DNA of 64,000 nucleotides from Candidatus Latescibacterota bacterium (GTDB lineage Bacteria > Latescibacterota > UBA2968), in NCBI GenBank assembly GCA_965116885.1, contig OZ220741.1:5120001-5184000 (forward strand), read 5' to 3'. Position numbers: made by a program. Of the stretch, positions 18,001-24,000 are shown piece after piece (within the stretch, counting starts at the first letter, position 1; each line of letters begins with the position of its first letter).

Positions 18001-21000
18001 GTACGGTCGGAACATTTTTCCATGTTGGGCGTTTGAGGCTTACAAAGTCCCACATAATCTATTTCAGATAGGTATTTCGCAACGTGAAAAGGTTTTGTAC
18101 ATACAATTTTTTGGTCCTCATTGTACTATTGGGCGGGCGCACGGGCGCACAAGAAGGCCCGGTGATTCAGGAGATCCGCATTCGAGGCAATGATTGGGTC
18201 GAGATTTCTTTTATCGAATCTCAAAGTGGCTTATTCAAAGGACAGAATCTGGTAGAAGGCGAAGCCGCGCGGGTGATTCGCAATCTTTATAAAAGCGGTC
18301 TGTTTTCCGACATAAAAATCTCTATAGATAAGGTGTCAGAGGGTGTGGCTGTTATTATTGATTTGAAAGCCGTGCCGCGTTTGGGTGAGGTGATCTTTAA
18401 GGGCAATCGCGCAATAAAGGATAAGACACTAAAGCGCGAGTCGAAATTGACTGAAGGTCAGTTAATAAAGCATCGAGAAAAAAAGAGAGCGGTCAACAAG
18501 CTGGTCGCGCTCTATCGCAAAAAAGGCTATTTGCTCGCCTCAGTAGATGTACAAGAAGAGGCGGTTGATAAAGATGGGCGATTGCCACTGACCTTTGAAA
18601 TTCACGAGGGTGAAAAGGTCAATTTGAAAAAGATTCGTTTTCACGGCAATACGGCATTGACCGGGAAGCAACTGCGCAAACAAATGAAAGAGACCAAACA
18701 GGATGGCTGGTGGTTTGGGGGAGGCAAATACAGCGAGGAGACTTATCCCGACGACAAAGAATTGGTCTTGGCCTTTTACCGGCAAAAAGGATATCGGGAA
18801 GCGGCAATTGTATCCGATAGCTTGTCCTATGGCCCTGTGAAAAAAAATATGTACCTCGATATCACGATCGAAGAAGGGCCGCTTTATCGCTTTGGCGCAG
18901 TGAGCTGGTCGGGCAATGAGAAAATCACCGATGCCGGTTTTTCTCACTTTATTGTAGTCGATTCAGGCGCGGTCTATAACGAAGAGCGCGTCTTAAAATC
19001 GCGAGAGCAATTGCAAAATGCCTATATGGACATCGGGCATATTGGCGCGCAAGTTTTTCCACAACAAAAACCCATTGAAGGTCACGTCGTCGATGTGCAT
19101 TTTGACGTAGTCGAAAAAGATCCGTGGACAATTCGCAAAATTTTGATTACGGGCAATACCAAAACCAAAGACCGCGTGATTCGACGCGAATTGCGCGTGC
19201 GGCCAGGCGATACGTTTAGCCGCGCACTTTTGGAACGCAGCGTGCGCGAAGTCATGCAACTCAACTTTTTCACCAATGTGTTGCCCGAACCTATCGCGGT
19301 AGAAGAAACATCAGAGATTGACCTCGAGTTTACCATAGAAGAAAAGTCAACGGGTACGGCGTCTATTGGGGCGGGGTATAGCGAACGCGACAAGCTCATT
19401 GGCACCATTGGGTTGCAAATTCCCAATTTTAGAGGCAATGGACAGCAGCTTGATTTCCAGTGGGAGTTTGGATCGCGCCGCGAAACCTTTAGCATAGGGT
19501 TTACCGAACCGTGGTTCCGCAACACCCCCACGAGTATATCGGCATCGCTGTTCCGAAGCACCATACGACTGGCAACTTATGGTGTAGCGGACTTTGACCA
19601 GCGCACAGAAGGCGGTGCATTTCGCCTCGGACGCCGACTCCGCTGGCCCGATTATTCGCGCATTTCTGGAGGGTATCGCATCGAGAAGGTTGCTTTTATC
19701 AATTTTTCCGACAGTACAGATGTAAACAATCCCTTTTACCAGGACAATATAACCAGCAGCATCAGCGCGAACTTGACCCGCGACAGCCGTGATTTGCCGG
19801 TTTTTCCCACATCTGGAGGCGTAATTTCCTATTCGCCCGCATTGGCTGGCGGATTTTTGGGCGGTAATAGAGATTTTCACAAGCACGATATTGTCACGAG
19901 CTTTTACTTTCCTATATTCTGGCGATTGGCCTTAAATGTGCGGTCACAATTGGGCTTTGTCGCCAGTTATGGCACCGAGCGTGTCCCATATCAGGAATTG
20001 TATCTGCCGGGTGGCGTTGACATTTTTGAAGGCACCATGTTGCGCGGTTATCCCGACCGCTCAATTGGCCCCCGTAATATTGGAGGGGAGCCAACTGGGG
20101 GTGTCGCGCAGTTGTTGTTTAACGCAGAGATCAGTATCCCCATTGTGCCCAATCAGTTTTACGGCCTCATTTTTGCCGATGCGGGTAATGCCTGGGACAA
20201 TCTGGATCGGATCAGCCTGACAGATATGCGCCGATCGGCCGGTTTTGGCATTCGGATTGTAGCACCTGTAGTGGGTATTATGGGATTTGATTTTGCATGG
20301 GGATTTGACCGTCGGCGTGTCGATGGTCAGTCCGTACAGATGATGACGCATTTCCAATTCGGTCCGCAATTTTATTAGCGGTCAGACTCCTCCTGTACCC
20401 ATGGATGGCAAGGGAGGGCCAAAAGTTTATTCACGGAGGGAATTTTGATGACACGCTGTCGCTTACTTTATGTCGCGCTATCTCTGGCACTAACTGGTAT
20501 AGCCAGTACTGCTGGCGCGGAGCTAAAGATAGGGTATATTGATTCGCAGAAAATTTTGGATCAATACAAGCCCTATCAAGATGCTTTGAGAGAATATAGC
20601 CGTTACGAAGACGAACTCCAGCGCGAGATGAGCACCATGCAAAACGATCTCGCCAAGATGCAGGACACCTACGAACGCCAATCTCTACTTTTGAGTGACA
20701 AACGCAAACAAGAAGAGCAGCAAGCTATTATAAAAAAACAGCAGGAACTGCAGCGGTTTGTGCAAGACACCACCTCTCCGCAAGGCAGTCTCGCGCGCAA
20801 GACCGCGGAATTGTCTGAACCTATTATTCAAACAGTGAATGCGGTTATCAAACAAGTGGCAGAAGACGAAGGCTTTGATTTTGTACTCAATTCGACGGCT
20901 CTGGCCTATGCGAAAGAGGCACACGATTTGACCGATAAGGTCCTCGAAGCACTTGCCAAAGATCTCGAGACCAAAGCGAAAACTGAGAGCCCATAGTAGA

Positions 21001-24000
21001 TCATCTATATATGTTGTTTTCTATTGAAAGTCTCTGATTTACTCCGCGGAGTGACCGGAGACTTTTTAATGTAAACGTTGGAGGATGCCGTGACTCTGGA
21101 TATTAGAGATATTGAAAAAATTCTTCCGCATCGTTATCCTTTTCTGCTCGTTGATCGCGTAACCGAGTTAGTACCTGGCGAGCGGCTGGTCGCGTACAAA
21201 AATGTGTCGGCTAATGAGCCATTTTTCCAGGGACATTTTCCCGGCAATCCCGTGATGCCGGGCGTGCTCATTATCGAAGCGCTGGCTCAGGCCGCTGCAA
21301 TTTTGATGAGTGATGGGCAGGAAAGCGATTTGATCCCATTGTTTATGGGCATTGACAAAGCGCGTTTCCGCAGACAAGTTGTGCCCGGTGATCAACTTCA
21401 GCTAAAAGTCAAAGTAGGCCAAAAACGCCGCAATGTGTGCAAAGGGATTGGCGAAGCCACAGTGGATGGCGATGTCGCTGCACAGGCAGAATTGATGGCG
21501 ATGTTTGCAAAGCGCGAAGATTTGTAGCACCCCCTATCCTCGTTCTAAAAAAAACTCGGCGCGAATATAAAAGCCGAGTTTTTTGTTTTATAAAGTTTTC
21601 AGCGGAAAATATCCGCATACCGCTCATTTTTCTTTTTCCAAAATTTCCCATTCTTCAAATAAGTGATCCATTCTATTTTGAATCTCTTCTTTTTCTTGCG
21701 CCAGTTCTTTCAGGCGATGCCAATCGGTGGCCTGGTCTTCTCGCGCCATTTCTTTAGCTATCTGATCGGCCTGGTCTTCGAGTGTTGCTATTGCTTCTTC
21801 TATTTCGGCCAAGCGGCGTTCCCGTCTTTGCTGCTGCCGCATTGCGCGCTTGCGATTTTTATAGTCGGTTTGCGTTTGAGGTGCATTCTGTACGGTCGGT
21901 ATTTCTACAACCTGCATCTGGCGCTGGTAAGCATCGTAATTGCCGTCCACCAGTTGCCACTTTCCGTCGCCAAGCACGATCAGGCGATTGACCAGACGAT
22001 TGAGAAAGTATCGGTCGTGTGAAACCGCGATTACAGTCCCCTCAAAAGTCTCAAGCGCGTTTTCCAGCACATGGCGGGAGGCGATATCCAGGTGGTTGGT
22101 GGGTTCGTCAAGCACCAGCAGATTGAGGGGTGCGCGCATGAGTTTAGCCAGGGCAACGCGACTTTGTTCTCCCCCACTGAGCGAACGCGTCTCGCGTTCC
22201 ACGTCGTCCCCAGAAAAGAGAAAAGCACCCAGAAAGTTTCTAATCTCAACCTCTGGAACATTGGGCGTAAGTGACCATATCTCTTCGAGAACGCTCAAAT
22301 TGGGATTCAGGTCCTGACGGGTTTGCGCATAATATCCAATCTCGAGACCTTTGCCCGGAATAACGCGTCCCGAGTCCGGTGCGAGTTGTTCCATAAAAAT
22401 TTTCAAAAGTACGGATTTGCCCGAACCATTGGGACCTATAATTCCAAGGCGCTCGCCCCACCACAACGTGAAGTTGAGATCGGCAAATAAAGGGCGATCA
22501 GGATAGGCTTTGGTAAGATTTTCAACCTGTAAAACGCGATCTCCCCCCCGTGTGGTGGTATTAAATTTGAGCGCGATATCGCGTTGTTGTACAACGCGTT
22601 CTACGCGATCGAGTTTTTCAAGTGCCCTGCGTCGGCTCTGCGCCTGCCTGGTCTTTTGTCCGGCGATATTCCGGCGGATATACTCTTCGGTTCTCTCAAT
22701 ATGCGCTTGCTGCGCACGATAGGCTTTTTGCTGCTGCGCACGGCGCTGTTCTTTTTCGTGGATATAAAAGGAATATGTTCCCGAATACTGTTCGACCACG
22801 CCTTGTTCCAGATCTACAATTTTGGTCACTGTGCGCTCGAGAAAAGTGCGGTCATGGGAAATAATGACAAAGGCTTTGGCATAATCCGAAAGAAAGTACT
22901 CGAGCCACTCTATAGCCTGCAGATCGAGATGATTGGTAGGTTCATCCAGAAGCAACAAATCGGGTTCTCTTGCGAGCAATTGGCCAAGGGCCAGGCGATT
23001 TTTCTGCCCGCCACTGAGCACTTGCGTTGACAATTTCAGATCGGCTTCGCAAAAACCAAGTCCGAAAAGAATGGCCTTGGCACGGGCTTCTGTCGCATAC
23101 CCTCCCATGTGCTCATACTGGTCGCGGAGATGCCCGTAATCATCGAGTACAGCATCGGAATTTTCACCCTCAGCCATGGTTTTTTCCAAATCCTGAAGGC
23201 GGTGTTGCAGAGCCAGAATATCGGCAAAAGCATCGAGTGCCGCATCCATAACTGTGCAATCTGAATCAAATGTGGGTTCCTGAGTTAGAAATCCAATATT
23301 GAGACCGCGCTGCCTGTGCAGTTGCCCTCGATCGGGCAGGCTTTCTTCGGTTATGAGCCGAAGCAACGTGGTTTTGCCACACCCGTTGGGACCGACAAGC
23401 CCGATGCGATCACCTGGATCAATTTGCCAATGAATACCAGTGAGCACATCGTACGCGCCGAAAGATTTCCAGATATCTTTGAGTTGGATAATCACCTTTT
23501 ACTGCCTCTTGCGCCATTAAGCATCTGACGCAGATCTTCCGCAGATTGTCGAGCGGCGTCTGCAAAATCGGTACCACTGGAAGCGTAGAGGATGCTGCGC
23601 GACGAGTTGACGAGAATACCGCTGCCTTTTCCGTTCAGACCATTTTGGACAATTGCATTAGTCTGACCACCTTGCATTCCCACGCCGGGTAAAAGGATGG
23701 GGAGGTCAGTGGCAATCGCGCGAATAATTTTTAAGTCGTTGGGATGTGTTGCACCCACAACGAGACCGCAAGGTCCTTTTTCCGACCATTTCACAGCTTT
23801 TTGCGCGAGCACCTCATACAACACGCCCTGGTCTGTGTTGAGGCGCAAAATATCAGCCGACCCGGGATTGGATGTGAGGCACAAAAGGAAAGCACAACCG
23901 TTTTGATAAGCCAAAAAGGGGGCAATAGCATCTGTTCCCATCAGAGGGTTGACAGTCACTGCGTCAACGCCGAGTTGGCAGTATGCCATGTATGCATAGT

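What a model noticed while it worked through the whole genome (the two positions that open the first line are those of the whole stretch)
18084..21527. Lipid A pathway lost class-wide while the full Lpt bridge is kept
This diderm (BamA, T9SS, TonB transporters) has no lipid A or Kdo-transfer genes, yet keeps LptC/A-like/B, F, G, D and E. The loss covers the whole class UBA2968 and leaves gene-order scars (bamA-skp-fabZ without lpx genes; pyrG-lptC without kdsA), so Lpt must carry another outer-leaflet lipid. The genus has also lost OmpA/Pal-type tethers.
Evidence so far: LpxC 0 of 132 class genomes vs 36 of 36 other phylum genomes, controls ring. Six-frame searches of this genome blank for LpxB, LpxK, KdtA, LpxA and OmpA with ringing controls. 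Lpt genes g03706-08, g03868-69, g04409, g00426; LptF/G in at least 127 of 131 class genomes, LptD 112. OmpA domain in 1 of 13 genus genomes. Paper searches blank.
(Added by a program. Inside this text positions count along the whole contig: contig position 5,120,001 is position 1 of the stretch shown here. "Call 12" and the like, gene names such as g00115 and contig names such as C1 are that model's own, and its searches are not shown. The text may have been shortened before it was handed on; [...] marks where a part breaks off. The agent that wrote the report below was given it as the finding of a first reader that could run no searches.)

Follow-up and report, generated by a model that had tools for sequence, protein, structure and literature searches.

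The report
LPS-free bacteria with ether-lipid pathway
A whole class of uncultured two-membrane bacteria has lost lipopolysaccharide synthesis but kept its export bridge, and has also swapped the standard first step of bacterial lipid synthesis for an animal-like ether-lipid route, so its outer membrane is probably built from different lipids.

Summary
The loss is real. The window holds bamA-skp-fabZ with an 81-bp gap; LPS-making relatives have bamA-skp-lpxD-[lpxC-fabZ fusion]-lpxA-lpxB, and only the FabZ half remains. Class counts: LpxC 0/132, LpxB 0/132, KdtA 2/132 (foreign-looking contigs), LptD 130/132, LptF/G 129/132. This genome also lacks the phylum's MsbA clade. Lpt without lipid A is a known state (Borrelia, Treponema, Thermus, Thermotoga).

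The class also lacks PlsY (0/132, 29/36 outside) and PlsX (1/132, 33/36 outside); GpsA was absent wherever tested. Instead it carries a fatty acyl-CoA reductase (128/132), a new HX4D acyltransferase family with a PlsC/GPAT-type fold (130/132), alkylglycerone-phosphate synthase (125/132) and a linked short-chain reductase, beside the fab operon. This is the peroxisome-type DHAP/ether route, apparently the only sn-1 entry to glycerolipids.

Sphingolipids are excluded in this genome and the Lol genes are intact. Best guess for the Lpt cargo: an ether-backbone glycerolipid, probably glycosylated; no cargo is shown. Two outgroup genomes made a similar swap yet keep lipid A, so the events are not strictly coupled. 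OmpA/Pal loss is patchy.

The parts
18084..20378 (+). bamA, outer-membrane protein assembly factor
   Evidence: TIGR03303 509.6 bits, cut-off 297
20445..20996 (+). skp chaperone
   Evidence: NF008047 E 7.8e-13, below cut-off; 33-37% to the gene after bamA in G139 and G142
20997..21077 (.). 81-bp gap where lpxD and the LpxC half of the lpxC-fabZ fusion lie in LPS-making relatives
21078..21527 (+). stand-alone fabZ, matching the C-terminal half of the outgroup LpxC-FabZ fusion; lpxA and lpxB no longer follow. The Lpt genes and the ether-lipid operon lie outside the window; their contig positions are in the full report.
   Evidence: TIGR01750 over cut-off; 50-51% to residues about 320-466 of the G139 and G142 fusions
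11077..11757 (+). lolA-like periplasmic lipoprotein chaperone
   Evidence: TIGR00547 E 5e-27, below cut-off
14553..15236 (+). lolD-like ATPase directly after lysS; the lolC/E genes lie elsewhere (contig 1572858-1575294)

Best explanation
The class has rebuilt its envelope lipids at two levels. (1) Shown by gene content: the lipid A/Kdo pathway is deleted, and in this genome its MsbA-type flippase too, while BamA, Lol and all seven Lpt parts are kept. (2) Shown by gene content, with chemistry inferred from homology: PlsX, PlsY and GpsA are gone, and glycerolipids start from dihydroxyacetone phosphate. A new acyltransferase makes acyl-DHAP, FAR makes fatty alcohol, AGPS swaps the acyl chain for an alkyl chain, the linked reductase gives 1-O-alkyl-glycerol-3-phosphate, PlsC acylates sn-2, and CdsA with PgsA/PgpA and two further CDP-alcohol transferases add head groups. 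Much of the membrane is then 1-O-alkyl-2-acyl lipid. (3) Inferred only: Lpt extracts one of these ether-backbone glycerolipids, most likely a glycosylated or strongly anionic one, and places it in the outer leaflet in place of LPS. My odds: step 1 about 0.97, step 2 about 0.85, step 3 about 0.5.
For: Lipid A loss and Lpt retention. LptD tree groups by family, which fits inheritance rather than re-acquisition (quick tree). The MsbA-like clade of G141, G142 and G139 (support 100) has no member from this genome (quick tree). PlsY 0/132 vs 29/36, PlsX 1/132 vs 33/36, GpsA below cut-off in 3 of 3 other class genomes tested and absent here, PlsB absent here. Scars: rpmF-fabH without plsX and der-merR without plsY-gpsA (G142 has them). 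Gain: acyltransferase 130/132 vs 2/36, FAR 128/132 vs 3/36, AGPS 125/132 vs 1/36. The two near-complete outgroup genomes lacking both PlsX and PlsY (G139, G162) both carry a FAR. The four genes occur as one block in another phylum (L312, labelled Trueperaceae) and in G165. AGPS keeps the residues aligned to mammalian R419, Y578 and H615-617 (their catalytic role is recalled). The operon has genome-like GC and a housekeeping-like codon score. The only Kbl-like enzyme here is BioF, not serine palmitoyltransferase. LolC/E, LolA and LolD are present. LPS-less diderms with Lpt are argued to export glycolipids (PMC10353723, passages), and Lpt paralogues are proposed to carry sphingolipids in Caulobacter (10.64898/2026.04.12.717747, abstract).
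Against: No cargo is identified and no lipid was measured. G139 and G162 lack PlsX/PlsY and carry FAR yet keep LpxB and KdtA, and G139 is not sister to the class on the LptD tree, so the ether switch does not force lipid A loss. AGPS was not found in 7 class genomes (G001, G003, G039, G113, G114, G116, G117, which scores only up to 7 candidates each); G001 and G003 have a HAD, Zn-dehydrogenase and LarA-like set in its place. Acyl-DHAP can be reduced directly to an ester lipid, so the ether share is unknown (own knowledge). The acyltransferase's acceptor is not shown and it has no sequence match to the ElbD acyltransferase domain. In Myxococcus, AGPS loss only slightly lowers ether lipids (PMC9131029, passages). 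The first helices of LptF and LptG show no class-specific change. No class-specific glycolipid synthase was found: the conserved GT2 pair is also in the outgroup and the orphan GT9 is missing from most of this genus.
Confidence: 0.5

Rival explanations
1. The DHAP route is real but yields mostly ordinary diacyl lipids (acyl-DHAP reduced directly); ethers are minor, and Lpt carries an ester glyceroglycolipid as proposed for Borrelia, Treponema and Thermotoga.
For: AGPS not found in 7 of 132 class genomes, all of which keep the acyltransferase. AGPS is minor in Myxococcus. Glycolipid precedent. A conserved pair of membrane GT2 enzymes with weak GT21 matches is present here and in 4 of 4 other class genomes tested.
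Against: AGPS and FAR are kept in about 95% of class genomes, near 60% identity for AGPS across families, in one operon with the acyltransferase in two of the four families.
Confidence: 0.18
2. Lpt serves as a bulk route for phospholipids and the outer membrane has no special outer-leaflet lipid.
For: The MsbA clade is lost here and no class-specific glycolipid synthase was found.
Against: TamA/TamB and MlaE/F/D-type genes are present and could move phospholipids. The published Lpt lipid cargoes I read about are glyco- or sphingolipids.
Confidence: 0.12
3. Lpt is kept to flip lipoproteins to the surface, as one study proposes for Borrelia LptD.
For: Title and start of abstract of 10.1101/2022.12.21.521298. 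LptA here is about three times the usual length.
Against: Another Borrelia study found LptD not needed for surface lipoproteins. LolA, LolC/E and LolD and a SprA-type T9SS translocon are present. LptF/G look unchanged from LPS-making relatives in the stretch compared.
Confidence: 0.12
4. The cargo is a sphingolipid, sulfonolipid or host-derived sterol.
For: Caulobacter precedent. A sterol methyltransferase, Rieske oxygenase, GPP34-P450 and RND cassette lies next to lptD in this genome.
Against: The single Kbl-like enzyme passes the BioF cut-off and fails all three serine palmitoyltransferase models; tested in this genome only. The sterol cassette is 60% GC against 51% and is not beside lptD in G139.
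Confidence: 0.05
5. Lipid A is still made by enzymes too divergent to detect, or the absence is an assembly artefact.
For: A GT9, a GmhB-like phosphatase, an RfaE domain and a GmhA-like protein remain in this genome; KdtA in 2 of 132.
Against: Single-contig genome, 98% complete; clean deletions at the ancestral site; three families absent or nearly absent across 132 genomes while found in 30 of 36 outgroup genomes where counted.
Confidence: 0.03

Closest known systems
LPS-less diderms that keep Lpt (Borrelia, Treponema pallidum, Thermus, Thermotoga)
   Same: No lipid A pathway, Lpt orthologues kept, cargo argued to be a glycolipid (PMC10353723, passages). Thermus, Deinococcus and Thermotoga ring for LptF/G but not LpxC in the controls.
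   Different: Here the loss is class-wide inside an otherwise LPS-making phylum, all seven parts including LptE are kept in this genome, and it coincides with loss of PlsX/PlsY; Thermus, Deinococcus and Thermotoga keep both in the controls.
Eukaryotic peroxisomal ether-lipid pathway (FAR, GNPAT, AGPS, acyl/alkyl-DHAP reductase)
   Same: FAR domains, an AGPS at E 1e-151 to the mammalian enzyme, an HX4D acyltransferase and an SDR in one operon.
   Different: The acyltransferase is not a recognisable GNPAT (no family hit; only 65 representatives at E<=0.001 among 1.84 billion). Latescibacterota are absent from the published GNPAT and PEDS1 tables but present in the FAR and AGPS tables. In eukaryotes the route runs beside GPAT (own knowledge); here it appears to be the only sn-1 entry.
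Myxococcus xanthus elb and MXAN_1676-1674 operons
   Same: FAR, acyltransferase and AGPS in an operon; ElbD-type multidomain FAR (PMC9131029, passages). The largest family of this class uses an ElbD-type FAR (3 proteins scanned, one from the outgroup).
   Different: In Myxococcus ether lipids are one part of the membrane and the elbD/1676 double mutant exists; its FAR and acyltransferase are fused. Here FAR and acyltransferase are separate and PlsX/PlsY are gone.
Sphingolipid-carrying LptF2G2C2 of Caulobacter
   Same: Lpt-family proteins proposed to move a non-LPS lipid (abstract).
   Different: Those are extra paralogues beside LPS export; here nearly all class genomes have just one lptF-lptG pair and this genome has no serine palmitoyltransferase.

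Membership tests
LPS diderm (Raetz pathway) | LpxA, C, D, B, K and KdtA present | tested here: not met
LPS diderm (Raetz pathway) | MsbA flippase | tested here: inconclusive
   No member of the outgroup MsbA-like clade, but one paralogue sits in an unresolved group with E. coli MsbA, and none of 5 genomes passed the TIGR02203 cut-off
LPS-less diderm with complete Lpt | BamA and outer-membrane machinery | tested here: met
LPS-less diderm with complete Lpt | LptA, B, C, D, E, F, G present | tested here: met
   only D and F/G counted class-wide
LPS-less diderm with complete Lpt | Non-LPS cargo shown | not testable with these tools
   needs lipidomics or cross-linking
FAR/GNPAT/AGPS ether-lipid pathway | FAR | tested here: met
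FAR/GNPAT/AGPS ether-lipid pathway | AGPS with conserved active-site residues | tested here: met
FAR/GNPAT/AGPS ether-lipid pathway | GNPAT-family acyltransferase | tested here: inconclusive
   HX4D motif and PlsC/GPAT fold met; no family or solved-structure sequence match; acceptor untested
FAR/GNPAT/AGPS ether-lipid pathway | acyl/alkyl-DHAP reductase | tested here: inconclusive
   linked SDR in 38 of 80 loci around the acyltransferase (many loci are short or split the operon); substrate untested
Aerobic plasmalogen pathway | PEDS1/CarF desaturase | not tested
   not searched here; no Latescibacterota row in the published PEDS1 table
PlsX/PlsY or PlsB phospholipid initiation | PlsX + PlsY, or PlsB, with GpsA | tested here: not met
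   PlsB tested in this genome only
Sphingolipid-based outer membrane | serine palmitoyltransferase | tested here: not met
   (this genome only)

The most novel reading that the evidence does not exclude
A whole bacterial class makes its glycerolipids only through a peroxisome-type DHAP/ether route started by a new acyltransferase family, so both membranes are mainly 1-O-alkyl ether lipid, and the inherited Lpt bridge now exports an ether glycolipid that replaces LPS; these bacteria would then be a main source of the alkylglycerol ethers found in sponges.
Probability: 0.35. Interest if true: 0.9.

Novelty: new variant of a known kind. Interest (0 to 1): 0.74.

Why it matters
Bacteria are taught to start phospholipids with PlsX/PlsY or PlsB on glycerol-3-phosphate and diderms to cap their surface with LPS. 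This class appears to have dropped both, which makes three things testable. First, whether the eukaryote-type ether route can be a bacterium's only way into glycerolipids, with a new acyltransferase family that can be assayed in vitro. Second, what a single, unduplicated Lpt bridge carries when LPS is gone. Third, who makes the alkyl ether lipids of sponges, where FAR-type and AGPS genes of this phylum have been noted but not their role as core metabolism. Missing LPS may also matter for how an animal host senses these symbionts.

Tried and rejected
PF04453 missed LptD here; PF19838 is the right model. A missing lolC/E between lysS and lolD looked like a loss, but two copies lie elsewhere. Serine palmitoyltransferase: rejected, the enzyme is BioF. 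GT9 as a class-wide builder of an LPS-like core: a GT9 is in 72 of 72 class genomes outside this genus at >=92% completeness, but in only 3 of 19 others within it; the single-copy form checked in 20 loci is one orphan orthologue shared with the outgroup. The GT2 pair is also in the outgroup. LptF/LptG first-helix comparison was uninformative. Profile comparison of the new acyltransferase with an ElbD protein gave nothing, nor did a sequence search of solved structures. G139 as sister to the class is not supported by one-gene LptD (long branch, midpoint root). RNA-library contigs from four studies cover parts or all of the four ether genes, but these are contigs and no silent control was laid, so this does not show expression. 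A Sup-like PKS (name recalled) was noted but its spread was not tested. No earlier scan findings were seen. The first six-frame profile script gave no output and was rerun with filters. Paper searches found no report of lipid A or PlsX/PlsY loss in this class; the library lacks most subscription papers.
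Full report
Observation. The finding's coordinates hold bamA, skp and fabZ. The skp-fabZ gap is 81 bp. In two LPS-making members of the phylum the same site reads bamA-skp-lpxD-[lpxC-fabZ fusion]-lpxA-oxidoreductase-lpxB, and this genome matches only the FabZ half of the fusion. The lipid A genes were therefore cut out around a half-gene that fatty-acid synthesis still needs.

Scale of the loss. LpxC is in 0 of 132 class genomes, LpxB in 0 of 132 against 30 of 36 outside, KdtA in 2 of 132 against 30 of 36. The two KdtA hits lie on small contigs, one with lpxK and lpxL, in genomes with no LpxC or LpxB; I read them as misbinned but did not prove it. Profiles built from phylum sequences found no credible LpxB, C, K, L, WaaA or KdsA in six frames of this single-contig, 98% complete genome. 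The MsbA-like transporters of three outgroup genomes form a clade with no member from this genome, though one paralogue stays unresolved next to E. coli MsbA (quick tree).

Lpt is kept. LptF/G are in 129 of 132 and LptD in 130 of 132 class genomes. LptC, LptE and LptB are present here. The gene between lptC and lptB passes PF03968 narrowly and folds as a long beta-jellyroll whose best matches are LptD and, further down, LptA (mean pLDDT 70). A LptD tree of 28 of the 168 genomes groups by family. The first helices of LptF and LptG look the same inside and outside the class. OmpA-domain loss is patchy: none here, 8 of 19 in the rest of the genus (7 weak), 39 of 86 in the class and 14 of 15 outside, among genomes at least 93% complete.

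Parts outside the window, as positions on contig C1: lptD 5104163-5106550 (-); lptC, lptA, lptB 4255339-4257934 (+), directly after pyrG; lptF-lptG 4457483-4459848 (+); lptE 480640-481191 (+); FAR 30747-32351 (-); acyltransferase 28800-30737 (-); AGPS 26952-28784 (-); SDR 26123-26917 (-); plsC 3692090-3692758 (+).

The fab operon runs rpmF-fabH with no plsX. PlsX and PlsY are absent here and across the class: PlsY 0 of 132 against 29 of 36, PlsX 1 of 132 against 33 of 36 (the one PlsX is on a separate contig with few matches to this genome). GpsA and PlsB are absent here, GpsA also in three more class genomes, and der-merR are adjacent where G142 has der-plsY-gpsA-merR. One PlsC remains. Divergent from the fab operon lies a four-gene operon. 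FAR has both male-sterility domains. The second gene has no family match, but His447 is invariant and Asp/Glu452 conserved in all 76 aligned sequences, language-model features point to PF01553, and its confident model (pLDDT 89.8) matches PlsC and then plant GPAT; the family is small and isolated. The third is AGPS, E 1e-151 to the mammalian peroxisomal enzyme, with the next non-AGPS hit at 2e-25. The fourth is an SDR. Counts are the mirror image of PlsX/PlsY: acyltransferase 130 of 132 against 2 of 36, FAR 128 of 132 against 3 of 36, AGPS 125 of 132 against 1 of 36. The operon sits beside ndk-yceD-fabH in two families; in the largest family the genes are scattered and FAR is often part of an ElbD-type protein. 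The four genes recur as a block in a genome labelled Trueperaceae (L312) and in G165 (80 of 160 confirmed loci were returned).

Mechanism. Shown: gene presence, absence, order, motifs and folds. Inferred from homology: acyl-DHAP, then alkyl-DHAP, then 1-O-alkyl-glycerol-3-phosphate, then PlsC, CdsA and PgsA/PgpA (present). Loss of GpsA fits a DHAP start; a glycerol kinase could supply head-group glycerol phosphate. Inferred with least support: Lpt exports a lipid built on this backbone. With lipid A gone, no serine palmitoyltransferase and an intact Lol set, glycerolipids are the main amphiphiles left, and they appear to pass through this route. I found no class-specific glycolipid synthase: the orphan GT9 is missing from most of this genus and a conserved GT2 pair is shared with the outgroup.

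Against a tight link. G139 and G162 lack PlsX and PlsY and carry FAR, yet keep LpxB and KdtA, and G139 nests in the outgroup on the LptD tree. AGPS was not found in seven class genomes, two of which have a different gene set beside the acyltransferase. Acyl-DHAP can also give ester lipids, so the ether share is open. All counts are over related, partly incomplete genomes, and the genome search uses a loose first look that can miss weak matches.

Comparison with print. Lpt without LPS is known: PMC10353723 (passages) names Borrelia, Treponema, Thermus and Thermotoga and favours glycolipids; 10.1101/2022.12.21.521298 (search listing only) favours lipoproteins; 10.64898/2026.04.12.717747 (abstract) reports Lpt paralogues for sphingolipids. 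The ether route is known from eukaryotes and Myxococcus: PMC9131029 (passages) and PMC13012113 (parts 1 and 4 of 7 and term searches). The latter never names this phylum in its main text; its FAR and AGPS tables list UBA2968 genomes, its GNPAT and PEDS1 tables do not (files 1-12 searched, files 13-15 and the SI PDF not seen). 10.64898/2026.06.23.733905 (passages and one section; supplements not seen) notes elbD and agps hits in sponge Latescibacterota. PMC12993501 (term search and section 3.3) does not mention LPS. PMC8871954 (passages) does not mention the phylum. Eight searches found no report of the lipid A loss or of the PlsX/PlsY replacement; the library lacks most subscription papers, and unseen supplements could hold such data.

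Verdict. Together with the class-wide replacement of PlsX/PlsY/GpsA by a peroxisome-type route using an unnamed acyltransferase, it is a new variant that a lipid specialist would find surprising and could test in vitro. Interest 0.74.

Noticed in passing
contig 5096606-5104062, just outside the window next to lptD (L327, L041): A 60% GC cassette: RND transporter, GPP34-cytochrome P450 fusion, sterol methyltransferase and KshA-like Rieske oxygenase; looks like an acquired sterol-modifying module.
   Followed up: partly
contig 1329074-1342506 (L044): A 3354-aa type I PKS with a small ACP, a hydrolase and a permease, resembling the sup operon of sponge symbionts (name recalled); could supply methyl-branched chains for the ether lipids.
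   Followed up: no
L107, L108, L109, L331: G001, G003, G139 and G162 have a HAD phosphatase, a Zn-dehydrogenase and a LarA-like (nickel-pincer) protein beside FAR instead of AGPS-SDR, mostly followed by a lipid kinase; possibly an alternative lipid route.
   Followed up: partly
contig 1068674-1094768 (L323, L037, L038): GmhB-like and RfaE-domain genes, a GT9, GT4 and GT2 enzymes, a flippase and several membrane glycosyltransferase-like TPR proteins, although lipid A and Kdo are absent; the heptose acceptor is unknown.
   Followed up: partly
L164-L183: An orphan single-copy GT9 is kept across the class outside this genus and in the outgroup, but is missing from this genome and most of its genus.
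   Followed up: partly
window 13037-15236: lysS is followed directly by lolD; the two lolC/E genes sit at contig 1572858-1575294.
   Followed up: yes
L292, L304, L286, L312: The new acyltransferase also occurs in records labelled Gammaproteobacteria, Zixiibacteriota, Eisenbacteria and Trueperaceae, in three of the four right after a FAR.
   Followed up: partly
contig 522219-524525 (L043): Apolipoprotein N-acyltransferase Lnt is fused to TatC in one 768-aa reading frame.
   Followed up: no
window 24441-24800: Sequence between pyrF and the RNase H gene on the minus strand looks like RNase P RNA (recalled motifs, not searched).
   Followed up: no
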